From a virus: a stretch of DNA of 40,999 bases. Every line of letters begins with the position of its first letter. Position 1 is the first letter of the stretch. This document shows positions 2,487-28,222 of the stretch, in pieces. Location of the stretch: UHGV virus genome UHGV-1366019; one strand, 5' to 3'. The notes beneath the pieces were generated by a model, which ran no database searches, was not told the origin of the DNA, and worked only from the letters and a program-made list of their open reading frames with translations. The position numbers and the translations under genes are program-made.

Positions 2487-2967
2487 AGAATGGAAAGATA
2501 TTAAAGGTTATGAGGGTTTATATCAGGTTAGTAATTTAGGTAATGTTTACTCAAATATAACTAAAAAGAAACTAAAAGCAAGAATTAAAAGATATTCATA
2601 CTTAGGTGTTGTACTATACAATAATGAAGTAGCAAAACACTACACAATACACCGCCTAGTAGCGGAAGCATTTATACCAAACCCAGAAAACAAACCACAG
2701 GTAAACCATATTGATGAAGATAAAACAAACAACATGGTTTCTAATCTTGAATGGTGTACAGCTAAAGAGAATGCAAATCATGGTACACGTAATAAAAGAA
2801 TGAGTCATAGAGTAAAAGCTATAGATATTGCAACAGGCGAATACAATATCTATAACTCAATACGAGAATGCGGGAGAAAATTAAACATAAGTAGCGGAAA
2901 TATCAGTAAGCAATTAAATAGAAAAATTAAACATGTTGGAGGTTATATATTTGAGTATTCCAAATAA
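2479..2967 (+). CDS. HNH homing endonuclease (NUMOD4-like N-terminus plus HNH_3)
   Basis: WKDIKGYEGLYQVSNLGNV is the N-terminal motif typical of phage HNH homing endonucleases. HIDEDKTNNMVSNLEWCTAKENANHG is an HNH motif. Start taken at ATG 2479, inside the track ORF 2458. Confidence 0.8.
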   Translation: MIEEWKDIKGYEGLYQVSNLGNVYSNITKKKLKARIKRYSYLGVVLYNNEVAKHYTIHRLVAEAFIPNPENKPQVNHIDEDKTNNMVSNLEWCTAKENANHGTRNKRMSHRVKAIDIATGEYNIYNSIRECGRKLNISSGNISKQLNRKIKHVGGYIFEYSK

Positions 2968-4255
2968 AATAGGTAAGATTACTTTATTACCAAATCAAAT
3001 TGAATCAATTGAGAACTGGAAAGAAAAACCTTTTGATTTATCAGATGCAGGTGTTGGTAAAACCTATAGCGCATTAGGTGCCTACCTGCAATCTGGGTGC
3101 AGTAAGTTATTAGTTATATGCTTAGCACCAAAAGTCAGTGACTTTGCAGAAGATGGAGCTTTGATGGATATTGATATTACTCCATTAAACAGAGGAACAA
3201 AGAAAAACAAAGAACTGTTAGCTGAATCAGATAAAGTTGCAATCAGTTTTGAAAGTGTTTGGCGTATCACTGAATTAATGAAGTGGGTTGACAAAGACAC
3301 CTTTATAATTATTGATGAAGGACACAAGGTAGGAGTAGTAAGCTCTAAGGTTACCAAGTTTGTAATGAAGTTGACAAATAAAACCATGTATGTTAGAATA
3401 CTAACAGCAACACCTGTTAGCAATGGAAAACTTGAAAATTATTATCCATTGTTATATATGCTCAATGTATTCCGCAAACCTAAAAAAGAATTTGAAGAAC
3501 TATTTGTTATTAAGCAAATGCGCCAAATGGGTTCGCTTAGGTTCATGCAAATTGTTGGGTATCAGAACGAGCATTTATTAAATGATATGATAAATAGCGT
3601 TGCGGTGCGTTTTACACGTGATAAAGACTATTTCCCAGCAGATTATGTGTATAAGACTAAAAAGCCAGCTATGTATGCTAAATTGAAAAAGAACCGCATG
3701 TACAAAGCAGATAACGGCGAAGTGATTGAATTAGATAATAGTAGTAAACTATTTAACGCAATGCGCTGTGTGTCACATGGTTTCTTATTAGGAATCAATA
3801 AACAGGTAAGTAAAGAACCATTTGAACGACTGAACCAGATTCTTGAAACACACAATGACGAACGAATAGTTATATTTTATAATTACAATGTAGAACTTGA
3901 AATGTTGAAACAAGTATTAGACAAGTTAAAACGTCCATATAGCCAATATAATGGCGCTAGCAAAGACTTAAAAGCGTTTAAAGGTAAAGACAACGGTGTT
4001 GTGTTAGCACACTACAAATCAGCTTCTACAGGTATTAATGACTTTGTTATTGCGAATGTGACAATTTACAATTCAATGCCTTTAGAATCAATTAACTATG
4101 AACAATCAAAAGCACGCACAGACCGCTATGGTCAAACGAAGAAACCACTTTATTATCACATTGTACCTGAAACACCAACGGAGAAAAAGATTTTTGAAAC
4201 AGTCACAAACGGAAAAGACTTTACTAATGAAGATATTGAAAACATTTTAAAATAA
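2951..4255 (+). CDS. SNF2/DEAD-like superfamily-2 helicase
   Basis: Motif I GVGKTYSALGAY, DEGH box (IIIDEGH), motif III LTATPVSNG, motif VI QSKARTDRYGQ. Probable TTG start at 2951 after GGAGG at 2938-2942; the track ATG at 2933 lacks an RBS. Confidence 0.75.
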   Translation: MSIPNKIGKITLLPNQIESIENWKEKPFDLSDAGVGKTYSALGAYLQSGCSKLLVICLAPKVSDFAEDGALMDIDITPLNRGTKKNKELLAESDKVAISFESVWRITELMKWVDKDTFIIIDEGHKVGVVSSKVTKFVMKLTNKTMYVRILTATPVSNGKLENYYPLLYMLNVFRKPKKEFEELFVIKQMRQMGSLRFMQIVGYQNEHLLNDMINSVAVRFTRDKDYFPADYVYKTKKPAMYAKLKKNRMYKADNGEVIELDNSSKLFNAMRCVSHGFLLGINKQVSKEPFERLNQILETHNDERIVIFYNYNVELEMLKQVLDKLKRPYSQYNGASKDLKAFKGKDNGVVLAHYKSASTGINDFVIANVTIYNSMPLESINYEQSKARTDRYGQTKKPLYYHIVPETPTEKKIFETVTNGKDFTNEDIENILK

Positions 4256-19363: not shown

Positions 19364-22300
19364 TTAAACAATACCTAAGTCACGTGAACGATTACGTTCT
19401 GCGGTTTTATTTAGGTTGTTAAGTTCCTTGTTAAGCTTCTTACCATCCAATAATACATCTGTATTTTTGGCTAAGATAGCTTGCAACAATTCGTTCTGTT
19501 GTTGCATTAAAGCAACCACTGTTGCTAAGTCTGTTGATGTTCCTTGCTTAGGTGCGTTGCGTTCTTCCTTAACTCCTAACGCTTGTTTAGCTTGGTTAAG
19601 CAATGCCATTGCTCTACCTCGTTTAGCTGGTTCAGTTGGAATGATAAATTCTGGATAGCCATTTTCAGCAAGTTTTGCAATCTGTGGACCTTTTGCAATA
19701 CCACCATTATAATAACCTCTAATGCGTCCACCAGATGGACCCCAACCAGATTTACCATAAGGTAAGTCTTGACGCCAGTTAGTATTGTTGAAGAATGCTA
19801 GTAATTGGTCATAACCTGAATAAATGTTGCCATGCCCTTTCACCTTGTATGCGTCAAACGTTTGTGGGATATATTGAAGCAAGCCACGTGCTGGGTTTCC
19901 GCTTGCGGTGTTGACGTCCCATACTGCTGAACTTTGAACAATCTTTTCATTACCACCTGATTCACGTTGAATCTGTGCTAAGATACCATTGATTTCACTT
20001 TCACTAGCATTTGCACCCATTTCTTTGGAAGCTTTGATGACTAATGCTCTCCAGTTACCATCTACAGGACCGCTAACACGTTCTTCCTCTTCTTTCTTTT
20101 TGAATAAGGCTTTCACCTTTTCAGCAAATGCAGTTGTTGCTTTTGTTCCTAAGCCTTTTGCCATGTCTAATGCTACGTGTGTTAGACCTCCTAAGTCCAT
20201 TGCTCCCATAATTGCATTTCGTGCTAAGTCTAACGGATTACCTACCCAGTCCATAATATCGCCAATGGTTTGTTTTACCTTGTTAATACCATTACCAACA
20301 AATGACTTGGTATTGTCCCACATGTTGCGAACGCCGTCCATGAAACCAGTTCCTTTTTTATAGAATGGAATGCGCCCTTTTTGTCCTAATACCATTGATG
20401 TTTCTTTGGCATTTAATACTTGTGTTCCCGCTGGTGCATTCATCATAACGTTTCTACCTTTTGGAATCATTGCTTGACCATTTGGTGCGATTATCATTTC
20501 AGCACCACCACCGTCATTTACTACCATAGGTCCGCCTATGTGTCCGTCAGTACCGTTTGCATACTGTGGTACGTCCCATTTAGGAATTTGAGGTGCGCCA
20601 AACTTTTCTAACACCCAGTTAGCACCGCCAATGATACCATTTACTGGACCACCAATTGCACTCAATACCTTATTGAAAATACCTTTAAATGCACCAGTAA
20701 CATGACCAGCGCCCCTACTGATTGCACTGCCTAAACGTTCTGGCAAACTAGTAAACCAACGTACAATAGTGTCAATACCACCACTAAATGTGTTTTTGAT
20801 TCCCTTCCAAAGAGATGAAATAGTTCCTGAAACATTACTTCTAAGGTCACGTGCAATGCGTGTTACATTACTGAACCAACCTGAAACAGCACCATTTACA
20901 TTTGATATACCACCTTTAAAGAAGTTTTTAACAGCTTCCCACATTCCAGAAATTGAACCTTTGAATGTTGCGCCAAAACCTTTTACACCTTTTAATATTT
21001 TACCAAAGAATGAAAGATTTATCCAGTTCCAAATTACTTGAATAGCACCCCAAACTAATTGCTTGATACCGTCCCAAATCTGTTTCCAGTCACCATTGAA
21101 AATACCTTTAAAGATTTTTGTTGCCCCTTCAATTACATCAAAGAAACCTTCAATCAAACCAACTACTGAATCAACAAACATCATTACAATATCAATTGCA
21201 ATTTTAAAAATTGGTGTTAATAATTCTAACCACTTTTTAAGTGCATTCATTATTGCTTGTCCGTTCTCGTTCCACCACTTAGTCACCTTATCAAAAACAG
21301 CACCTAACCTGTCCCCAAGTTCTTGAAGCTTAGGCATGATGTAAGGTATTAAGTCATCTGCAATGTACTTAATCACAACACCCATAATGTCGCCCGCAAC
21401 CTTGAAAGATGTACCAAGATATTGCGTTAACTTTTCAAGAATTGGTTGTGCAAACTCCCACATTTTTTGCAACGCTGGTTGTACCATTGGTAGAATTTTC
21501 TTGGTGAAGTTTGTGATACCGTCTGCCATTCCACCAAACATTGGGTTCAATGAGATACCAATTTCATTTCCTAATGCTTTTAATGCTGATTTAAAGGCGT
21601 CCATTCCAGTTGTGTTACTCATTGCGTTGTTCATTGCGTCTTGTGCGCCTTCTACATTATCATATGCCATTGATGTGTTGTTTAATGACTTGATAACATT
21701 TAAGCTGTTATCTTCACCTAATGCGGACCAGATTGTCCCAGCTTTGTTTAGTGCTTCATATTGGTTTTCCATACCGCCAAAGTCGCTAATCATTGAACGG
21801 ATAACGTCCGCTTGTGTTGCTCCGCCTTGTTGCCATTGTCTAAACAACTCTTGTGTTTGACCGCTGAACATACCTATGTTGTCCTCAAAACGACCATCTG
21901 TTAATGAAATAGCCATTTCTTTGATTAAGTCATTGACTTTGTCTAAGTTGTATGCTCCACCATCTAAACCACTTTGTAACATGTCAAATGTTTGTTCTGC
22001 TGTGAAACCAGCTTGACCAAAAATCTGTGAGTATTCAGCCATGTTGTCGCCTAGTTCGTCTGTTTGGTCAAGTCCCATTTGTGCGCCACGTGCCATCAAG
22101 TCCCAAGCTTTGTCTGCGTCAATACCAAAGTTGGTCATCATTTTACCAATACCACGAATAGTTTCGTTTACGTCTGCACCTGTATTTTTAGAAAATGCAA
22201 TTGCATTACGTGTCATTCGTTGTAGCATGTCATCGTCCATGCCTTCCGCACCCATTACATTTTGAACACGTATCATTGCGTCTGCTACTTCGTTGATGTC

Positions 22301-23251
22301 GTCTGAATAACCTTCCGCAACTAATTGGTTAGCTAGCCTTGAAACGGCTTGGGCGCTCTCTGCGTCCCAATCAAACGCACCTTTGAATTTATCAACGGCT
22401 TCAATACCAGCATTAATATTTTCAACAACTTCTGAAACAGCGTCACTAATCATATCAATTGCTTTAGTAGCTACCGCCATACCAACACCAGCAACCAAAC
22501 CTTGTAGTCCTTTACTTGCTAGTCCTAAACCTTCACTAGTTTCACCACTTGACTTACCTAGTTCTTGCATTCCTTTAGATACTGAATCTAGTTCACTATC
22601 TGTGTTGTTTAATTGCTTTTTAAAGCCTTGTAACTCTTGTTCAGCCTTGCTAACTTCTGTTGAATTTTTACCAAACTTTTGCGTTAACTGTTTGATTGCG
22701 TTTTCTTGACCAGCAATTGCTTGTTTAGTTAGGTCTGATTGACGTTTTAAACCAGCTTGTTTTGTTTCCAAAGCACCCATTTTGTCGCCAGCTTTATCCA
22801 TTGCATTGGCTTGTGTTTGGAAGTCTTTTGCGTTATCTTTAATTTCTTGACCTAGTTTGTCTAAACCATTCTCAAACTTGATAACGTCAGCTGTTGTTTT
22901 TTGCAAATCTTTTTGCATTCCGTTGTATTTGGCACTAGCATTGTTTAACTGTGTTGTTAGTGTTTTAACTTGGTTTGATTCTTCACCATATTTTGCAATA
23001 GCGTCTTGACGTTTCTTACTTAGTAATTCAACTTTCTTACCTTGTAAGTCCGTAGCTGTTGCTAAGTCTTTTTCTTTTTGTTGCAATTTCTCAATACTTT
23101 GTCCTGATTTATCAAACACTGATAAATTGGCTTTCATTGCTGATTCTTGCTGTTTAATTGACTTGTTTAATTTGTCTAATGTATTAATTGTCTGGTCTAC
23201 ACCGTCAACACCAATACCAAACTTCATATTGCCAATAACTTTGTCTGCCAT
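19364..23251 (-). CDS. tail tape measure protein with C-terminal lytic transglycosylase (SLT) domain
   Basis: 1295 aa. TP901-type TMP core region with G/W-rich repeats. ESGGNE...GLLQYIPQTF is an SLT catalytic-Glu motif near the C-terminus. Confidence 0.85.
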   Translation of the reverse strand: MADKVIGNMKFGIGVDGVDQTINTLDKLNKSIKQQESAMKANLSVFDKSGQSIEKLQQKEKDLATATDLQGKKVELLSKKRQDAIAKYGEESNQVKTLTTQLNNASAKYNGMQKDLQKTTADVIKFENGLDKLGQEIKDNAKDFQTQANAMDKAGDKMGALETKQAGLKRQSDLTKQAIAGQENAIKQLTQKFGKNSTEVSKAEQELQGFKKQLNNTDSELDSVSKGMQELGKSSGETSEGLGLASKGLQGLVAGVGMAVATKAIDMISDAVSEVVENINAGIEAVDKFKGAFDWDAESAQAVSRLANQLVAEGYSDDINEVADAMIRVQNVMGAEGMDDDMLQRMTRNAIAFSKNTGADVNETIRGIGKMMTNFGIDADKAWDLMARGAQMGLDQTDELGDNMAEYSQIFGQAGFTAEQTFDMLQSGLDGGAYNLDKVNDLIKEMAISLTDGRFEDNIGMFSGQTQELFRQWQQGGATQADVIRSMISDFGGMENQYEALNKAGTIWSALGEDNSLNVIKSLNNTSMAYDNVEGAQDAMNNAMSNTTGMDAFKSALKALGNEIGISLNPMFGGMADGITNFTKKILPMVQPALQKMWEFAQPILEKLTQYLGTSFKVAGDIMGVVIKYIADDLIPYIMPKLQELGDRLGAVFDKVTKWWNENGQAIMNALKKWLELLTPIFKIAIDIVMMFVDSVVGLIEGFFDVIEGATKIFKGIFNGDWKQIWDGIKQLVWGAIQVIWNWINLSFFGKILKGVKGFGATFKGSISGMWEAVKNFFKGGISNVNGAVSGWFSNVTRIARDLRSNVSGTISSLWKGIKNTFSGGIDTIVRWFTSLPERLGSAISRGAGHVTGAFKGIFNKVLSAIGGPVNGIIGGANWVLEKFGAPQIPKWDVPQYANGTDGHIGGPMVVNDGGGAEMIIAPNGQAMIPKGRNVMMNAPAGTQVLNAKETSMVLGQKGRIPFYKKGTGFMDGVRNMWDNTKSFVGNGINKVKQTIGDIMDWVGNPLDLARNAIMGAMDLGGLTHVALDMAKGLGTKATTAFAEKVKALFKKKEEEERVSGPVDGNWRALVIKASKEMGANASESEINGILAQIQRESGGNEKIVQSSAVWDVNTASGNPARGLLQYIPQTFDAYKVKGHGNIYSGYDQLLAFFNNTNWRQDLPYGKSGWGPSGGRIRGYYNGGIAKGPQIAKLAENGYPEFIIPTEPAKRGRAMALLNQAKQALGVKEERNAPKQGTSTDLATVVALMQQQNELLQAILAKNTDVLLDGKKLNKELNNLNKTAERNRSRDLGIV

Positions 23252-23822
23252 TATTCAATCTCTCCTTTTGCTTTTGCTAGGTCTGTTGGTGATAGGACAG
23301 TGCCAAAAAATGCTAATGGGTCTTGTTTCTCTTCTTTTTTATCTTTAGTATTATCACTGAATAATTCCAATAAAAGAAGGTAGTCAGCTTCGCTAACATC
23401 ATTAACGGTCCAACCACCTTCCATGTATGAATTATATAATTTGTTTAGTGATTCCAAAGATTCGTCCCAGTTAACTTCTGCACCGTCCTCTAGGCTTCCT
23501 TTGAATCATCAACCCCCATGATAGTTCCTAAGATGTTTTCTAAAACGTCTACTAAGTCATCAGATTCAATTGAGTTTTCAATTGCTTCAAATGTAACTTC
23601 TGGGTGTTCGAAAATTTCAACTAATAAGACAATCATTGAATCTAATAATTCTAATTGGTCAACTTCTACACCATTAGCCATGTCTTTTTGTACGTTTTCC
23701 ATATCACGGTAATACTTCATAATACTACGCATTGTCTTAACTTTGACACCTTTTTTTGTAATTTTGCGGTTTTTTCCGTCAATAATTAAGTTAATACTGA
23801 ATGATTTTGTTTGTTTTGCCAT
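23251..23822 (-). CDS. tail assembly chaperone G-T fusion via a predicted -1 programmed frameshift
   Basis: The -1 frame is open from 6 nt before the G stop, through the 68-aa track ORF (23251..23457), to the TMP start codon. The only slip window is GAT TCA AAG GAA GCC (A-AAG). Confidence 0.4.
23490..23822 (-). CDS. tail assembly chaperone (gpG-like)
   Basis: 110 aa acidic protein between the major tail protein and the TMP. Confidence 0.6.
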   Translation of the reverse strand: MAKQTKSFSINLIIDGKNRKITKKGVKVKTMRSIMKYYRDMENVQKDMANGVEVDQLELLDSMIVLLVEIFEHPEVTFEAIENSIESDDLVDVLENILGTIMGVDDSKEA

Positions 23823-23857
23823 GTTTATTCCTCCAAATAATTTTATTTACTATAGTT

Positions 23858-23866
23858 ATTATAGCA
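23858..23866 (-). promoter_or_regulatory. extended -10 element TGCTATAAT (one of three copies on the - strand)
   Basis: The + strand 10-mer tattatagca occurs at 23857, 32091 and 33257, each upstream of - strand genes. Confidence 0.4.
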
Positions 23867-23904
23867 TTAAAAGCAATGATTGTGGGTGTTGGTGAAACCA
23901 GTGT

Positions 23905-23932
23905 AATAAAAAAGAGAGCCGTTAAGCTCTCT
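23905..23932 (-). terminator. rho-independent terminator after the major tail protein gene
   Basis: - strand agagagc-ttaacg-gctctct followed by tttttatt. Confidence 0.6.
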
Positions 23933-23934
23933 TA

Positions 23935-24003
23935 GGTTAATTCAATTGATACACTTGTGTCAGCTGGCGTCACCTGTCCTACCACAGGTGGCGTGCTAGG
24001 GTG
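23935..24003 (-). other. conserved ~70-nt block after the major tail protein stop (CCC-UAG context), paralogous to 26313..26382
   Basis: See the findings. The +1 frame is open for 21 codons and ends in TAA at 23932-23934. Confidence 0.5.
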
Positions 24004-24559
24004 TAATAATGTTGTTTACTTTGTCAACAAACTTGTCAAGTGTTAATGTTTCACTTGAAACAGCACTCATGTATGCGAACCCGCGTGAATCTGTTACAAA
24101 TGAACCTTCAATTGTTTCTGTGTTTGGTTCTGTACCACCAGATTCAGTTGTATTCAATGCGATTTCTGGGTGGCTGAAACGTCCTTTAACTAAACCAAAG
24201 TACATTTCTTTACCGTCTGCACCGTCTGCAACAAATACCGCTGAAACGTAAGGTGCTTCTGTGTTTTCGCCAACAATTGCAATACCATCTTCACCGCGTT
24301 CAATGCCTAAAATTTTCTCATAAACGTTGTCTTTATACAAGTCAAATACGTTTAATGAAGCTGTTAACTCTCCAACCCCTTTTGCTGATACCCAAATTGG
24401 AACGTTTGACGCATAAACGGTTGTTTGTTCTGCTGAAATTCCTTGAATTGACGCTTCAATAGTACCGCCACCGCTTTTATCAATTGTGTATTTATCAACG
24501 CCAGCACCTTCTGCTTTAGGTACGCTGATAATAGCTTTTTTAAAACCTACTACTGCCAT
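23996..24559 (-). CDS. major tail protein
   Basis: 187 aa, phi13/TP901-like MTP family. Its position is canonical. Confidence 0.8.
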   Translation of the reverse strand: MAVVGFKKAIISVPKAEGAGVDKYTIDKSGGGTIEASIQGISAEQTTVYASNVPIWVSAKGVGELTASLNVFDLYKDNVYEKILGIERGEDGIAIVGENTEAPYVSAVFVADGADGKEMYFGLVKGRFSHPEIALNTTESGGTEPNTETIEGSFVTDSRGFAYMSAVSSETLTLDKFVDKVNNIITP

Positions 24560-24637
24560 AATTGTTTCTCTCCTTTAGTGTTTATATTTTCTTACTAGAA
24601 TAATTATATCATTAATCAACTGGTTTTAGGGCGTCAC

Positions 24638-25003
24638 TTAGACAACTCTTTGTGTGATTACGTAACGCTTCACAATGCGACTAGCACCTTCTAAGTCTGG
24701 TTCGTATGTCTGTGTACTAAATGAACATTGTACGTTATCAGCACGCATTGTCTTATCAATTGCTAGATAGTATTTATCCAACATTGTCAAATCTTCAACC
24801 CACAAATCAACTTGGATATAGGTTGTGTAATAATTTGGGTCTGCACTTGCGTATGCGTGATAGTCCATGTCTAACTCTGTGATTCTACCTACTGGCAACT
24901 TAGGAAGTGATACAAATTCATTTGGTACCTCGTTAGTAAACCAGTTGACTTCTGGGTGTGCTTCATTAAGTATCTGCGCCACTTGTAAAATAGGTAATGT
25001 CAT
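24638..25003 (-). CDS. tail completion / tail terminator-like protein (by synteny)
   Basis: 121 aa between the gp10-like protein and the MTP. Confidence 0.45.
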   Translation of the reverse strand: MTLPILQVAQILNEAHPEVNWFTNEVPNEFVSLPKLPVGRITELDMDYHAYASADPNYYTTYIQVDLWVEDLTMLDKYYLAIDKTMRADNVQCSFSTQTYEPDLEGASRIVKRYVITQRVV

Positions 25004-25407
25004 TTTAGAAACGCCTCCTCCATTGCTTTTATAATTACCTTTTCAATTTCGTCTTGAACCTCTTTAATAGTCTTTTCAATGAAATGTTGTGGTCTTTGTG
25101 TCATTGTTCCCAATTCTGTAAAGTGAACCCTCCACGAAACTTGGTCATTATACCCAATCAACACTTCGTGTTTACCTTTACTTGCTTTTGTCATTGCTGT
25201 ATTTTTCTGCATATGTTCACGCTTGTACATCTGGTCTTTTCTACTGTACTTTTTACCGTTCCAATATGGTGTGCGTTTAGCAAGCTCTTGCTCTCCTATT
25301 TCACCAGCTTTGTTCAGTGCTTTTGCTGTGATACTATCTGCATTTTTACCAATCTTTATAAGTGCGTTGTATGCGTCTGAAAAGTCAGCATAATTCTGCT
25401 TACTCAT
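25000..25407 (-). CDS. HK97 gp10-like protein
   Basis: C-terminus ...VSWRVHFTELGT matches the HK97 gp10 family (yv.EfGT). Confidence 0.6.
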   Translation of the reverse strand: MSKQNYADFSDAYNALIKIGKNADSITAKALNKAGEIGEQELAKRTPYWNGKKYSRKDQMYKREHMQKNTAMTKASKGKHEVLIGYNDQVSWRVHFTELGTMTQRPQHFIEKTIKEVQDEIEKVIIKAMEEAFLK

Positions 25408-25736
25408 TTCTTAACCCTCTTACATACTAATGTTGTAAAGTCACGGTCATAGCTACCTTCCAATATTGATACTATTTCATAGTTAATACCTTTATATACA
25501 ACACGCATATCATTTTGTAATTGGAAACGCTGTTCATAACGCACAACAAAGTTAGTTGTATCCTCTAATGCAGTACCATATGTTTCTTTAAAATCTCTGA
25601 AATACTGCTGTTTTACGCTACACCATATAGTTGCTTTGTCAACCCACGTTGTTACCCATTCAAACTTATCGTTTTTAGCTGTGGTTTTCTCTTGAATAGT
25701 GATTTTTTGATTAAGATGTTGTGTTGGTATCGCCAT
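25404..25736 (-). CDS. head closure / head-tail joining protein (SPP1 gp16-like)
   Basis: 110 aa. Pattern and position match Phage_H_T_join. Confidence 0.65.
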   Translation of the reverse strand: MAIPTQHLNQKITIQEKTTAKNDKFEWVTTWVDKATIWCSVKQQYFRDFKETYGTALEDTTNFVVRYEQRFQLQNDMRVVYKGINYEIVSILEGSYDRDFTTLVCKRVKK

Positions 25737-26010
25737 CAGATAACCCCCTTAATTGCCAAATAAATGCCTGAATAGTGAACGGTACATCTTGTTGAAGTGC
25801 GCTGGTTGCTGGAACACGGTTTTCATACCAAAGAGAAACCAGCATGAACTGACAAGTCTTAAAACGTACATCTTCTGGAACTGTGTTAACCTCAATAGCT
25901 CCTAAGATAAACATTGAACTTGTGTCAATTAATGTCTGGATATAAACGTCGTCTGAATCATAGTCTAATCTTAGGTTGTTCTTAACTTCTTCTAATGTTA
26001 ACATTATCAT
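25711..26010 (-). CDS. head-tail connector protein (gp6/gp15-like)
   Basis: N-terminus MLTLEEVKNNLRLDYDSDDVYIQTLI is typical of Phage_gp6/connector. Confidence 0.65.
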   Translation of the reverse strand: MIMLTLEEVKNNLRLDYDSDDVYIQTLIDTSSMFILGAIEVNTVPEDVRFKTCQFMLVSLWYENRVPATSALQQDVPFTIQAFIWQLRGLSDGDTNTTS

Positions 26011-26021
26011 ACCTCCTTAGT

Positions 26022-26048
26022 TAAAAAGAGGGCTAAGCCCTCTTTTAT
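26022..26048 (-). terminator. bidirectional hairpin terminator between the small Ig-like ORF and the connector gene
   Basis: agagggc-taa-gccctct with an A-run upstream and a T-run downstream. Confidence 0.55.
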
Positions 26049-26248
26049 TATCCAGCTGTTGCAGTTGTAGTGAATGCTGGTACATCTACTTTGCTAGATT
26101 CTGGCTTACCATCTTCAATAGCTGTTACTTGAAAATCACCTTTTGCGTATTGTGTTTCTGCTGTTAAACCAGTGATTGTTACTGGTGACGGTTTTTCAGT
26201 CACAATCTTTTCACCTGTTTTCTTGTATACGTTAAATACTTTAGCCAT
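26048..26248 (-). CDS. small Ig/FN3-like protein (possible capsid decoration)
   Basis: 66 aa. TITGLTAETQY...VTAIEDG is a beta-sandwich-like pattern. Own RBS aaggagag; flanked by terminators. Confidence 0.5.
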   Translation of the reverse strand: MAKVFNVYKKTGEKIVTEKPSPVTITGLTAETQYAKGDFQVTAIEDGKPESSKVDVPAFTTTATAG

Positions 26249-26270
26249 AATTTACACTCTCCTTTTATAT

Positions 26271-26304
26271 TTTAAAAAGAGGTAAGGCGTATGCCCCACC
26301 TCTT
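26271..26304 (-). terminator. rho-independent terminator after the major capsid gene
   Basis: - strand aagaggt-(ggc..gcc inner stem)-acctctt followed by tttttaaa. Confidence 0.55.
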
Positions 26305-26312
26305 AGTATTTA

Positions 26313-26382
26313 CGATAATTCAATTGATACACTTGTGTCAGCTGGTGTCACCTGCCCTACCACAGGTGGCGCACTAGGGTGC
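26313..26382 (-). other. conserved ~70-nt block after the major capsid protein stop (CCC-UAG context)
   Basis: About 90% identical to 23935..24003. The +1 frame is open for 21 codons and ends in TAA at 26310-26312. Confidence 0.5.
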
Positions 26383-27591
26383 TGGTGTTAATGTAATGAA
26401 TTTTCCAGCCGCTGGGTCTACTACTTTAGCGTCAAAACGCATGAAGATTGCTAAGTATTGACCGTAAATTTCATGGTCAATCCAACGAGCAGTAGTTTCA
26501 GCACGATTGAAGAATGTTGCAAATGCTACTGGGTCGCCTAAGAATGCCACTTTAGCACCTTTATCACCTAACATTTCATCTTTTAACACTGTTACTGGAA
26601 CACCAAACAATGATTTACCAGACTGTGCTGTAATGTCAGTTTGTAATAAGTAACGTCCTTCACCGTCTTTCATGATGTCAACTGCGTTGTAGAATGATTG
26701 AGTAACAATTAATTCCAATCCATAAGCTGGGTCGAAACCAGTGTTAATCTGTGTTTTGATGTCATCTAATGAAGTTGCTGGTACTGCTGTAGCTGTTTTT
26801 AACAAGTTAGCTAAAACAAAGTTAGTTGTGTTTAAGCCTTGACGTTGTACTGAATCAGCAATAATTCCAGCTAAGTCGTCCGCTGAATCATCTAATGATT
26901 CTTGTGATACAACAATTTGACCACGGTAAGTTGATACGTTGTAAGGAACTTCTTCAAATTCAGGTTTTGCCAATGCTGGGTTTTTTGCCAACTCTTCAAC
27001 TGTTACCATTTTTGCAGTAGTTGATTTCAAGATTGGGTATTTACCGCCAGATGTTTTAACTTTGATACTGTTCACTTTATTACGTAAGTCAACAACTGTG
27101 TCTGGTAATTTACGTGCTTTTGTGATAATATCTTCTGGGATAATTGCTTCTGCGTCTGTTGATTTAACTTGTCCGTCATCAACCGCACGTGTTTCGTTAA
27201 ATGATTTTACGCTAGTTGATTTTGAAGTCACGTAGTCTAAAAACGCACGCTGTTCTGTTACTGGCTCTGCTAACTCTTTACCATTGATTTTTACTTTCTC
27301 CATGTCAATATCTTCTCCTTTTGCGTTCTCAATTGAACGTTCTTCTTTTTTTGGTTCTTCCTTTGGTTCGTCTTTGACTTCGTCTTTTGGTTGGTCCTTT
27401 GGTTCTTCTTTAGGCTCTTCCTTTTTGACTTCGTCTTTAGGTGCTTCTGCTTTATCTTCTGCACGTTCTTCGTTTTCAGCTGGTGTTTCATCTTTCAAAG
27501 CTTCTAACTGTTCAATAACTTTTTTAGCTTCGTCAAGTTTACCTTCTGCCAACAAAGATTTTGCTTGCGCTTCTAACTCTGCCTTGTTCAT
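26374..27591 (-). CDS. major capsid protein (HK97 fold) with N-terminal charged delta/scaffold domain
   Basis: 405 aa. HK97-family MCP C-terminal region. N-terminal ~110 aa is coiled-coil and PEEPK-repeat rich. The preceding gene is the prohead protease. Confidence 0.85.
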   Translation of the reverse strand: MNKAELEAQAKSLLAEGKLDEAKKVIEQLEALKDETPAENEERAEDKAEAPKDEVKKEEPKEEPKDQPKDEVKDEPKEEPKKEERSIENAKGEDIDMEKVKINGKELAEPVTEQRAFLDYVTSKSTSVKSFNETRAVDDGQVKSTDAEAIIPEDIITKARKLPDTVVDLRNKVNSIKVKTSGGKYPILKSTTAKMVTVEELAKNPALAKPEFEEVPYNVSTYRGQIVVSQESLDDSADDLAGIIADSVQRQGLNTTNFVLANLLKTATAVPATSLDDIKTQINTGFDPAYGLELIVTQSFYNAVDIMKDGEGRYLLQTDITAQSGKSLFGVPVTVLKDEMLGDKGAKVAFLGDPVAFATFFNRAETTARWIDHEIYGQYLAIFMRFDAKVVDPAAGKFITLTPAP

Positions 27592-27667
27592 GCTGTAAAC
27601 TCCTTTACATATTATTTTCTTACTAAAGATAGTATATCATGAACAAGGTGAGTTGTGGGCGTTACTC

Positions 27668-28222
27668 TTACAAGGTTGCTAGTCGTAACTGTAATTCTAG
27701 TTTTCGTTTTTCCATTTCGTTTACTTCCATGTTTTCAAGTGAACGTTTAGCTACTGCGACATCTGTGTCGTCATATGCTGGAATTGAAACCAGTGATATT
27801 TCAGCTAACGTATTGATTTTTTTGATAGTTCTAACTGGCTTACCGTCTCTCCGCTCCCATTCATCTTCCGCAACCGTAAAGCCAAATGAACATTGACTAA
27901 GGTCACCACGTTTTACAAGTTCCATAACATCATTTCCAAGTGTTGTATTTGGTAACTCACAACGGAATTTCAACCCTACTTCATCAACTGATAATTGAAG
28001 TGTACCGCTCTTTGTTCTTCCAAGTAAATTTCCTGAATCATGATTTAAAAATAATTTTACATCTTCCATATTAACGCCGTCCAATGCTCGTGCGTCAATA
28101 GTTTCAATAAAACCACCTAGGTCTTTTGATGGTTTATTGAATTTTAATGCGTAACCTTCAACAACATTGTTGTCATTCACAAACTCATGCAGTTGTCTAA
28201 TTTCCAGTTGCGTCTGTTTCAT
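27668..28222 (-). CDS. prohead protease (HK97/U35-S78 family)
   Basis: Conserved peptidase_U35 pattern (YALKFN...FLNHD...LLGRT). The start was moved to ATG 28222, which has the RBS aaggaag; the track start 28273 overlaps the portal gene. Confidence 0.75.
   Translation of the reverse strand: MKQTQLEIRQLHEFVNDNNVVEGYALKFNKPSKDLGGFIETIDARALDGVNMEDVKLFLNHDSGNLLGRTKSGTLQLSVDEVGLKFRCELPNTTLGNDVMELVKRGDLSQCSFGFTVAEDEWERRDGKPVRTIKKINTLAEISLVSIPAYDDTDVAVAKRSLENMEVNEMEKRKLELQLRLATL

What the first reader, a model, noticed from the sequence alone, without database searches (positions are those of the whole stretch)
23932..24003. Second copy of the CCC-UAG plus conserved-block element at the 3' end of the major tail protein gene
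This is the same architecture as at the capsid gene: ...AUU ACA CCC UAG, then the conserved block, then a +1-frame TAA at 23932-23934, then a terminator hairpin at 23905-23932. A ~70-nt noncoding repeat sits precisely after the stop codons of the capsid and tail genes. It preserves reading-frame length and the stop position in both copies. That is hard to explain by chance or by a transcription terminator alone, because separate canonical terminators follow each copy. Dual capsid-and-tail frameshifting would mirror the Listeria PSA/A118 cps/tsh paradigm, but with a short shared tag rather than Ig-like domains.
Basis: partly seen in the sequence, partly recalled or inferred. Interest (0 to 1): 0.7.

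Follow-up and report, generated by a model that had tools for sequence, protein, structure and literature searches.

The report
Frameshift tag docking a split FN3 domain
In this Enterococcus phage, the capsid and tail-tube genes both end in a slippery CCC-stop that can add the same 21-residue tag, and that tag looks like the missing first third of a small fibronectin-type domain encoded by a separate 66-codon gene, so the phage probably uses it to clip one decoration protein onto both head and tail.

Summary
A 72-nt block (23932-24003) repeats at 26310-26381 (92% identity), in each case starting at CCC-TAG, the end of the tail-tube and capsid genes of an Efquatrovirus (Enterococcus siphophage). 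CCC is the rarest proline codon here. The +1 frame is open for exactly 21 codons in both copies. Across relatives, 56% of codon differences are synonymous in that frame, against 3-6% in the other two frames.

The new point is what the tag is. It is not just a short tag. It matches strands A-B of an FN3 domain. The 66-aa ORF just after the capsid gene (26048-26248) matches strands C-G of the same domain and always lacks A-B. A tag+ORF fusion aligns end to end with intact FN3 domains and is predicted as a complete FN3 sandwich (pLDDT 96.8).

Tag and partner gene co-occur perfectly in 41 related loci. In other lineages the same pair is reached by -1 frameshifts instead. Some partners carry cargo domains (Big_2, HeH). 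Mycobacteriophage Bxb1 gp29/gp30 (PDB 9d93) shows the same split by sequence.

Neither frameshifting nor docking has been demonstrated experimentally.

The parts
23996..24559 (-). Major tail (tail-tube) protein gene, 187 aa, ending ACA CCC TAG
   Evidence: ORF list. Pfam Phage_TTP_1 E=2.9e-8. phrog_88 major tail protein E=5.8e-42.
23996..24001 (-). Proposed +1 shift site CCC_UAG of the tail gene (CCC 24001-23999, UAG 23998-23996)
   Evidence: Sequence. It is the only shift-prone site within the 18-nt overlap of the two frames. CCC is the rarest Pro codon, at 0.40 per 1000 codons.
23935..23997 (-). Tail copy of the tag: 21 codons in the +1 frame, STPPVVGQVTPADTSVSIELT, stop TAA at 23934-23932
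   Evidence: Synonymous-biased substitutions occur in this frame only. The tag aligns with strands A-B of intact FN3 domains.
23971..23990 (-). Hairpin CACCUGU-GGUAGG-ACAGGUG, 7 bp with a 6-nt loop, starting 5 nt after UAG; a possible frameshift stimulator
   Evidence: It is in the minimum-energy fold of both copies. Synonymous sites of the stem codons are invariant in 29 unique tag sequences. The folding energy is not better than shuffles for the capsid copy, and no compensatory changes were seen.
23903..23933 (-). Intrinsic-terminator-like hairpin plus T-run immediately after the tag stop codon
   Evidence: stem 23933->23912, 9 pairs, then TTTTTATT.
26374..27591 (-). Major capsid protein gene, 405 aa, ending GCA CCC TAG
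   Evidence: Pfam Phage_capsid E=3.5e-24. phrog_10 major head protein.
26374..26379 (-). Proposed +1 shift site CCC_UAG of the capsid gene
   Evidence: Sequence. The two frames overlap by only 12 nt.
26313..26375 (-). Capsid copy of the tag: SAPPVVGQVTPADTSVSIELS, stop TAA at 26312-26310
26349..26368 (-). Capsid copy of the hairpin (CACCUGU-GGUAGG-GCAGGUG, with one U-G pair)
26275..26302 (-). Terminator-like hairpin plus T-run after the capsid tag
26048..26248 (-). 66-aa ORF with its own RBS (AAAGGAGAG), encoding an FN3 domain that lacks strands A and B; the proposed partner ('catcher') of both tags
   Evidence: The Pfam fn3 match covers only profile positions 36-81 of 84. 132 N-terminal homologues all start at position 30-34 of a 92-position FN3 model. 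The profile finds multi-FN3 giant proteins. AlphaFold2 alone leaves strand E unpaired, while the fusion with the tag gives a complete FN3. The homologue in phage vB_EfaS-271 was detected by mass spectrometry at 7.0 kDa with 94% coverage (PMC7503890).

Best explanation
The window is an Efquatrovirus, a virulent Enterococcus siphophage. A fraction of ribosomes that reach the rare codon CCC, with the stop UAG in the A site, slip +1 (CCC to CCU). This happens at the end of both the capsid and the tail-tube mRNA. The slipped ribosomes add 21 residues, S[AT]PPVVGQVTPADTSVSIEL[ST], and then stop. These 21 residues are beta-strands A and B of a fibronectin type III domain. Strands C to G of that domain are made separately, as the 66-aa protein encoded just downstream of the capsid gene. 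I propose that the 66-aa protein docks in trans onto tagged capsid and tail-tube subunits and completes the FN3 sandwich. It would work as a natural tag/catcher by strand complementation. One small gene would then decorate both head and tail, at a density set by frameshift efficiency. What is shown: the repeat, its frame-specific selection, the truncation of the 66-aa protein, the homology of tag plus ORF to intact FN3 domains, and the co-occurrence of tag and partner. What is inferred: that the shift occurs, how efficient it is, that the two pieces bind, and what the decoration does. Its function is presumably weak adhesion to surface carbohydrate or virion stabilisation, as proposed for phage Ig-like and FN3 domains.
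For: Repeat and context.

Shift site:
- The frame overlap is only 12 and 18 nt.
- CCC accounts for 5 of 12,394 codons, and 2 of those are these terminal codons.
- Experimentally studied precedents exist: CCC_UAA in SPP1 gp17.1*, which adds an 87-aa FN3 (PMC6316719), and CCC_UGA in the tsh genes of Listeria PSA/A118/A500 (PMC5009743).

Translation of the tag:
- 56% of codon differences are synonymous in the +1 frame, against 6% and 3.5% in the other frames. The differences include AGT<->TCA serine switches.

Tag = FN3 strands A-B, ORF = strands C-G:
- BLASTP of the tag+ORF fusion against an intact FN3 domain of P0188 aligns residues 3-87 (E=4e-13). Within the tag, 11 of 18 residues are identical, and 0 of 20,000 shuffles score as well.
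- With an FN3 model built only from natural repeats, the fusion aligns over positions 8-97, and the real tag beats 297-300 of 300 shuffles.
- 132 homologues that begin at their own Met all start at model position 30-34 of 92.
- AlphaFold2 of the fusion gives pLDDT 96.8 and pTM 0.85, with the tag forming strands 5-11 and 15-21. All top 50 PDB matches are FN3 domains.

Functional link between tag and ORF:
- In 41 informative IMG/VR loci, a tag is present exactly when the partner gene is present (27 with both, 14 with neither).
- In other lineages the partner gene directly follows a tag reached by -1 shifting: A_AAG in L029/L034, G_GGA_AAC in L046, G_GGG in L047. In L051 the tag appears to be in frame.
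- Partners in relatives carry C-terminal cargo: Big_2, HeH, or an unknown 150-aa domain.
- Bxb1 gp29 (tail spike) ends in an A-B-like segment, and gp30 (tail wing base) starts at strand C. gp30 is the best PDB match of the 66-aa protein by sequence and by fold, and both chains are in 9d93.
- The two tags of one genome are more alike than tags of different genomes (6.6 vs 8.4 differences, permutation p=0.006).
Against: No protein evidence:
- The one proteomic study of a close relative searched only annotated ORFs, and its held supplements contain no tag peptide.

Structure prediction:
- Without intact FN3 domains in the alignment, AlphaFold2 left the tag undocked at pLDDT about 54.
- The confident model used an alignment that contains intact FN3 domains, so it leans towards that fold. 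It is also a covalent fusion, not a two-chain complex.

Sequence and RNA evidence:
- Pfam fn3 matches are below the gathering score (13.6 vs 25 bits).
- The hairpin is not energetically exceptional (z = -2.2 and -0.04) and shows no compensatory changes.

Variants among relatives:
- Some lack CCC-stop at one copy: GGT GAG TAA, CCC AGC TAA, and one GCC TAG. The shift site is therefore not universal, or is not understood there.
- The divergent tags of L029 and L026 are not individually significant against the FN3 model.

Statistics and precedent:
- The co-occurrence counts are phylogenetically clustered.
- I could not inspect the 9d93 coordinates or read the Bxb1 structure paper.
Confidence: 0.68

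Rival explanations
1. The +1 frameshift occurs, but the 21-residue extension works alone. It might act as a short strap that cross-links neighbouring subunits or modulates assembly. The 66-aa protein would then be an unrelated small structural protein.
For: The frameshift evidence is independent of the partner gene. The tail copy has no partner gene next to it. Without intact FN3 domains in the alignment, AlphaFold2 did not dock the tag.
Against: The tag is homologous, in register, to strands A-B of intact FN3 domains whose C-G part is homologous to the 66-aa protein. The 66-aa family always starts exactly where strand C starts. Tag and partner co-occur perfectly and are adjacent in several unrelated lineages.
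Confidence: 0.14
2. The block is a relic of a formerly complete frameshift-encoded FN3 extension that was cut by insertion of a terminator. It is no longer translated to any useful extent, and the two copies are kept alike by gene conversion.
For: Related phages do carry a complete Ig-like (Big_2) domain in the -1 frame at the same capsid position. The two tags of one genome are more alike than expected.
Against: Frame-specific purifying selection acts over about 100 genomes, with the ORF length and stop position conserved in both copies. The rare CCC is retained at two highly expressed genes. The same tag-plus-partner layout has arisen with different shift sites and directions.
Confidence: 0.06
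3. The conserved block is primarily an RNA element shared by the two late, highly expressed mRNAs. It could be a stabiliser, a processing site or a termination-efficiency element. Its open +1 frame would be incidental.
For: A conserved 7-bp hairpin has invariant synonymous sites in the stem codons. Each copy sits just upstream of a terminator.
Against: Substitutions are concentrated at third positions of one frame. Serine codons switch between AGT and TCA, which preserves protein and not RNA. There is no Rfam match. The folding energy is unexceptional. The 3' two-thirds of the block has no conserved structure. Divergent lineages keep the peptide, not the nucleotide sequence.
Confidence: 0.05
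4. The tag and the 66-aa ORF are joined into one polypeptide at the capsid copy by a second recoding event. This would require ribosomal bypassing of the 61-nt terminator/RBS gap and would regenerate a contiguous capsid-FN3 fusion.
For: The two halves are adjacent and in the right order at the capsid gene.
Against: The ORF has its own strong RBS and start codon, with an in-frame TAA two codons upstream. The homologue was detected as a 7.0-kDa protein with 94% coverage. The tail copy has no ORF to hop to. In L026 the partner gene lies about 700 nt away from the capsid gene.
Confidence: 0.02

Closest known systems
Bacillus phage SPP1 tail-tube proteins gp17.1 / gp17.1*
   Same: Both are Phage_TTP_1-type tail-tube genes of about 180 codons ending in CCC-stop. 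In SPP1 a +1 shift from the rare CCC to the overlapping CCU adds FN3 sequence to about a quarter of the subunits, and the extension is non-essential (PMC6316719).
   Different: SPP1 adds a complete 87-aa FN3 domain in cis, and only on the tail. Here only 21 residues (strands A-B) are added, the rest of the domain is a separate gene product, and the same tag is also put on the capsid protein.
Listeria phages PSA, A118 and A500: frameshifted Cps and Tsh
   Same: Both the capsid and the tail genes of one phage are recoded. The tsh genes shift +1 at CCC_UGA. The PSA cps gene shifts at ACA_CCC with a downstream structure. CCC is rare in a low-GC host (PMC5009743). The window's tail site also reads ACA CCC.
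   Different: In the Listeria phages the two extensions are different, long sequences. Here the two extensions are the same 21-residue sequence, and a trans partner is implied.
Frameshift-appended Ig-like domains on phage structural proteins (T3, Lactobacillus A2, and many others)
   Same: A C-terminal Ig-fold module is added to a subset of capsid or tail subunits. The family is indifferent to +1 versus -1 shifting (PMC5009743). Close relatives of this phage add a whole Big_2 domain to the capsid protein by a -1 shift at A_AAG.
   Different: Those domains are complete and covalently attached. I found no description of a split domain completed in trans.
Mycobacteriophage Bxb1 tail spike gp29 and tail wing base gp30 (PDB 9d93)
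   Same: gp30 is the best solved match of the 66-aa protein by sequence (E=0.029) and by fold (Foldseek probability 1.0, 35% identity). gp30 also starts at FN3 strand C. The upstream protein gp29 ends in an A-B-like segment, TPPNVSALHVDVSATSTSITIT. gp30 is reported to attach the wing to the tail spike, which that paper numbers gp22 and PDB entry 9d93 names gp29 (PMC12646305).
   Different: The Bxb1 tag is in frame, so every gp29 carries it. It sits at the tail tip, not on the capsid or the tube. gp30 is a 496-aa protein.
Donor-strand complementation in chaperone-usher pili, and the engineered SpyTag/SpyCatcher pair (from my own knowledge, not tested here)
   Same: An Ig-like fold is deliberately left incomplete in one polypeptide and is completed by a short strand or strands from another polypeptide. 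This gives a specific and stable attachment.
   Different: Pili donate one strand (G) of a pilin fold. SpyTag is an engineered split of a CnaB2 domain with an isopeptide bond. Here two N-terminal strands of an FN3 would be donated, no covalent bond is implied, and the donor is produced by ribosomal frameshifting.

Membership tests
Programmed +1 frameshift at a CCC-stop 'shifty stop' in phage structural genes (SPP1 17.1*, Listeria tsh) | The last sense codon is CCC, followed directly by the 0-frame stop, so the P-site tRNA-Pro can re-pair with CCU | tested here: met
   CCC TAG ends both the tail and the capsid genes. 40 of the 43 copies examined (41 in related contigs plus the window's two) read CCC TAG.
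Programmed +1 frameshift at a CCC-stop 'shifty stop' in phage structural genes (SPP1 17.1*, Listeria tsh) | CCC is a rare codon in the genome | tested here: met
   5 CCC codons in 12,394 (0.40 per 1000), against 264 CCA. Two of the five are these terminal codons.
Programmed +1 frameshift at a CCC-stop 'shifty stop' in phage structural genes (SPP1 17.1*, Listeria tsh) | An open +1-frame extension that is conserved as protein | tested here: met
   21 codons in both copies. Synonymous to non-synonymous differences are 1329:1034 in the +1 frame, against 135:2129 and 78:2155 in the other frames.
Programmed +1 frameshift at a CCC-stop 'shifty stop' in phage structural genes (SPP1 17.1*, Listeria tsh) | Two protein species with a common N-terminus are present in virions, and the junction peptide is identified | not testable with these tools
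   The only proteomic data for a relative used annotated ORFs, and no tag peptide is in the held supplements.
Programmed +1 frameshift at a CCC-stop 'shifty stop' in phage structural genes (SPP1 17.1*, Listeria tsh) | A 3' stimulatory RNA structure (present at PSA cps, not required at tsh or SPP1) | tested here: inconclusive
   A 7-bp hairpin lies 5 nt after UAG in both minimum-energy folds, with z-scores of -2.2 and -0.04. Synonymous sites in the stem are invariant, but there is no compensatory change.
Frameshift-appended complete Ig-like/FN3 domain (SPP1 gp17.1*, T3, A2) | The extension encodes a whole domain of about 80-100 residues | tested here: not met
   The extension is 21 residues and covers only FN3 model positions about 3-25.
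FN3 domain (Pfam PF00041) | Sequence match above the Pfam gathering score | tested here: not met
   13.6 bits against a cut-off of 25 for the window protein. The best family member reaches E=0.0012.
FN3 domain (Pfam PF00041) | Homology to bona fide FN3 repeats by profile search | tested here: met
   The profile of the 66-aa family hits multi-repeat proteins at E down to 6e-71, with 10-32 repeats each. Their repeats have the canonical FN3 pattern.
FN3 domain (Pfam PF00041) | A complete seven-strand sandwich within one polypeptide | tested here: not met
   The 66-aa protein starts at model position 30-34 of 92, as do 132 homologues. Only the tag+ORF fusion gives a full FN3 model (pLDDT 96.8, and the top 50 PDB matches are all FN3).
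Split-domain docking by strand complementation (Bxb1 gp29/gp30-like; pilus donor-strand principle) | The incomplete fold in the accessory protein and the missing strands at the C-terminus of a structural protein are encoded in the same genome | tested here: met
   In the window. Co-occurrence is 27 loci with both and 14 with neither. Other lineages. Bxb1.
Split-domain docking by strand complementation (Bxb1 gp29/gp30-like; pilus donor-strand principle) | A physical complex in which the donated strands complete the fold | not testable with these tools
   Only a covalent-fusion AlphaFold2 model could be run. No multimer prediction was available, and the 9d93 coordinates could not be inspected.

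The most novel reading that the evidence does not exclude
Siphophages have a natural, modular tag/catcher system. A 21-residue FN3 beta-hairpin is appended to a set fraction of capsid and tail-tube subunits by programmed +1 or -1 frameshifting, or is sometimes in frame. It captures small proteins whose N-terminus is an FN3 lacking strands A-B, and whose C-terminus carries exchangeable cargo (none, Big_2, HeH, or carbohydrate-binding-like domains). One gene then decorates head and tail alike. Frameshift efficiency sets the density, and cargo can be swapped without touching the essential structural genes. Bxb1 gp29/gp30 would be an already solved, unrecognised example.
Probability: 0.55. Interest if true: 0.85.

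Novelty: new variant of a known kind. Interest (0 to 1): 0.78.

Why it matters
Frameshift-added Ig-like and FN3 domains on phage heads and tails are well known, but they have always been described as complete, covalently attached domains. A domain split between a frameshift-encoded tag and a free protein would be a different assembly logic. The essential structural proteins would carry only a short, assembly-neutral tag. Decoration would happen in trans. One decoration gene would serve two unrelated structural proteins. Stoichiometry would be set at the ribosome.

This would explain several loose ends:
- why hundreds of phage genomes annotate a roughly 7-kDa 'major tail protein' next to the capsid gene;
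- why these phages keep a rare CCC at the end of their two most highly expressed genes;
- how accessory modules such as the Bxb1 wing are anchored.

It matters practically because Efquatrovirus phages are candidates for therapy against Enterococcus faecalis. A native 21-residue tag and 66-residue catcher pair would be a ready-made handle for displaying cargo on the capsid and tail without editing essential genes. The idea is directly testable with existing phages and existing mass-spectrometry and cryo-EM data.

Tried and rejected
- Stop-codon readthrough and the -1 frame at the window sites were rejected. Readthrough gives 11 residues and the -1 frame stops after 5-6 codons. Neither frame shows synonymous bias.
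- A known RNA family was ruled out. The Rfam search of 23700-26600 gave only two far-sub-threshold matches.
- A pseudoknot was considered. The complement of the loop GGUAGG (CCUA) occurs downstream only in the tail copy, so it is not conserved (read).
- No solved structures exist. The capsid and 66-aa proteins have no PDB sequence match.
- The first AlphaFold2 run (fusion plus 66-aa homologues only) left the tag unplaced (pLDDT 53-55), so it was inconclusive.
- Alignment A3, with whole multi-domain proteins, was misaligned by MAFFT and discarded.
- Pfam scans of the fusions did not extend the fn3 match into the tag.
- The profile search with fusions found no protein covering tag and ORF contiguously among the 120 hits listed, of 230. 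Intact relatives appeared only in the exhaustive HMMER search.
- The literature holds nothing on frameshifting in Efquatrovirus, nor on a split FN3 domain or strand complementation with frameshifting in phages.
- The Bxb1 structure paper could not be read, and another mycobacteriophage paper was irrelevant.
- The proteomics supplements of vB_EfaS-271 hold no tag peptides.

Full report
**What the window is.** The region matches about 124 Enterococcus phage records, at 95-97% identity to the closest of them (phages G01, MSF2 and vB_EfaS_159) and 73-80% to most others such as IME-EF4. This places it in the genus Efquatrovirus. On the minus strand the order is:
- capsid gene (26374-27591);
- a 66-codon ORF (26048-26248);
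- head-tail connector genes;
- the tail-tube gene (23996-24559);
- chaperone ORFs;
- a 1295-codon tape-measure gene.

- The repeat finder returns 23932-24003 and 26310-26381 as a 72-nt pair, 92% identical.
- Both copies begin at the last codons of a gene, ACA CCC TAG (tail) and GCA CCC TAG (capsid). Both continue in the +1 frame for exactly 21 codons to a TAA.
- A separate terminator-like hairpin with a T-run follows each copy.
- The 86-nt query finds 198 places in 101 phage records, essentially two per genome.
- In IMG/VR contigs the block is again found after the capsid and tail genes.

**Is the block translated?** Three lines of evidence say yes.
- The +1 ORF overlaps the upstream gene by only 12 nt (capsid) or 18 nt (tail). 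Any shift must therefore occur in the last 4-6 codons, and CCC_UAG is the only site the two copies share.
- CCC is by far the rarest proline codon. It occurs 5 times in 12,394 codons, against 264 CCA. Two of the five close the two most highly expressed genes.
- Among 28 unique tag sequences, codon differences are 1329 synonymous to 1034 non-synonymous in the +1 frame. In the other two frames the counts are 135:2129 and 78:2155. The differences include serine switches between AGT and TCA.

CCC-stop +1 shifting is experimentally established for SPP1 gp17.1* (CCCUAA) and for the tsh genes of Listeria phages PSA, A118 and A500 (CCC_UGA).

A 7-bp hairpin starts 5 nt after UAG in both copies. The synonymous sites of its stem codons never vary. 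Its folding energy is unexceptional, and no compensatory change was seen. A stimulatory role therefore remains open.

**What the tag is.**
- The 66-aa ORF that follows the capsid terminator has a strong RBS and an in-frame stop just upstream.
- Its weak Pfam fn3 match covers only profile positions 36-81 of 84.
- An exhaustive profile search found 1,586 relatives. These include giant proteins with 10-32 canonical FN3 repeats, and many short proteins whose match begins at residue 1.
- Against a model built from intact natural domains, 132 such N-terminal matches all start at position 30-34 of 92. The family therefore uniformly lacks strands A and B.
- The tag supplies these strands. A tag+ORF fusion aligns over its whole length with the intact third FN3 domain of P0188 (38% identity, E=4e-13). 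In the tag part, PPVVGQVTPADTSVSIEL against PPTVESVTPTDTTASIEM has 11 of 18 residues identical, and no shuffle out of 20,000 scores as well.
- With a generic FN3 model built from natural FN3 repeats in the retrieved proteins (chiefly the giant multi-repeat ones), the fusion aligns over positions 8-97. The real tags beat 297-300 of 300 shuffles.

**Structure prediction.**
- AlphaFold2 with only 66-aa homologues modelled the ORF part well, left strand E unpaired, and left the tag unplaced.
- With intact FN3 domains added to the alignment, the fusion became a complete sandwich (pLDDT 96.8, pTM 0.85). The tag forms strands 5-11 and 15-21, and strand E is formed.
- All top 50 PDB matches of that model are FN3 domains.
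- This second model leans on an alignment that contains whole domains, and it is a covalent fusion. It shows compatibility with the fold, not binding.

**Comparative evidence links the tag to the 66-aa gene.**
- Among the related contigs, every genome with a tag on the capsid and/or tail gene has the partner gene. Every genome without a tag lacks it: 27 have both and 14 have neither.
- The route to the tag varies:
  - CCC TAG in the window group;
  - CCC AGC TAA in L016 and L017;
  - GGT GAG TAA (capsid) and CCC AGC GAG TAA (tail) in IME_EF3-like phages;
  - a -1 shift at GTA AAG TAA in L029 and L034.
- Sister phages use that same A_AAG site to add a complete 88-aa Big_2 domain, and they have no partner gene.
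- Outside the genus, the partner gene directly follows:
  - a capsid gene ending G_GGA_AAC TAG, with the tag in the -1 frame (L046);
  - a tail-tube gene ending GCG GGG GAG TAG, with SPVVGKVTPTTNGATIALS in the -1 frame, 9 of 18 residues identical to the window tag (L047);
  - an ORF in which the tag appears to lie in frame at the end, though only 38 codons are held (L051).
- Partner proteins in relatives carry extra C-terminal domains: Big_2, HeH-like, or an unknown 150-aa domain. That fits an anchor-plus-cargo design.
- The two tags within one genome are more alike than tags from different genomes.

**A solved analogue.** The best PDB match of the 66-aa family, by sequence and by fold, is the N-terminus of Bxb1 gp30, the 'tail wing base'. 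The upstream gene product is gp29, the tail spike, which is also in PDB 9d93. It ends ...TPPNVSALHVDVSATSTSITITPSGAVDDA, an A-B-like segment. gp30 starts MPSGLRGYNVY..., at strand C. gp30 is reported to attach to the tail spike. I could not read the structure paper or inspect the coordinates, so this stays a strong lead and is not proof.

**Mechanism proposed.** A minority of ribosomes shift +1 at CCC_UAG on the capsid and tail-tube mRNAs. The resulting subunits carry a 21-residue FN3 A-B hairpin. The 66-aa C-G fragment binds it in trans and completes the domain. Head and tail are thereby decorated from a single gene, at a density set by shift efficiency.

- Shown: the repeat, frame-specific selection, the truncation of the ORF, homology of the two halves to one domain, and their co-occurrence.
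- Inferred: the shift itself and its rate, the binding, and the function.

**Standing.** The recoding signal is a new member of a known kind. The split, trans-completed domain that serves two structural proteins is, as far as the searched literature shows, undescribed. I therefore rate the whole as a new variant of a known kind.

Noticed in passing
window 24585-24645 and 27613-27673 (minus strand, upstream of the tail and capsid genes): A 61-nt direct repeat, 70% identical, shares a GT[GA]ACGCCC motif and a TGATATAAT / TGATATACT -10-like box. The capsid and tail genes each look like their own promoter-to-terminator unit, possibly under a common late regulator.
   Followed up: partly
window 27342-27425: Five 12-nt-spaced tandem repeats encode the Lys/Glu/Pro-rich repeats (EPKEEPKDQPKDEVKDEPKEEPKKE) in the N-terminal, scaffold-like part of the capsid protein.
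   Followed up: no
window 23490-23822 and 23251-23457 (minus strand): Two short ORFs lie between the tail-tube gene and the 1295-codon tape-measure gene. This is the usual place of the G/GT-type chaperone pair made by a -1 frameshift. If so, it would be a third recoding site in this module.
   Followed up: no
L025, L031, L035, L038, L039, L043 (about 2740-3010 in each locus): In related Enterococcus phages the capsid gene ends GTA AAG TAA, and a complete 88-aa Big_2-like domain lies in the -1 frame. These genomes have no tail tag and no 66-aa partner gene.
   Followed up: partly
L045 (Bxb1 NC_002656) 20960-21200: The C-terminus of gp29 (tail spike) looks like FN3 strands A-B, and gp30 (tail wing base) starts at strand C. 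The genes overlap by 8 nt, and both chains are in PDB 9d93.
   Followed up: partly
L024 and L044 (IME_EF3-like), capsid gene ends at about 2680-2700: The capsid copy of the tag lies in the +1 frame after GGT GAG TAA, with no CCC in the overlap. The shift site there is unexplained.
   Followed up: no
L006:5071 and L016:2169 / L017:5065: Variant tail copies: GCC TAG in one metagenome contig, and CCC AGC TAA, with the stop one codon later but the same +1 frame, in two others.
   Followed up: no
P0110 (L049:147-404): An 85-aa family member carries its own A-B-like segment (PTATADGASIELA) at its C-terminus. It could be a self-complementing circular permutant or a head-to-tail chain former.
   Followed up: no
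L048:1-1561: One tag (…TTDTTATIELS*) plus terminator is followed by two tandem partner genes of 236 and 247 aa, each an N-terminal partial FN3 plus Big_2 cargo.
   Followed up: no
window 26048-26248: GenBank/RefSeq records and PHROGs (phrog_341) call this 66-aa protein 'major tail protein' or 'tail tube protein'. That looks like a propagated misnomer for an FN3 fragment encoded next to the capsid gene.
   Followed up: partly
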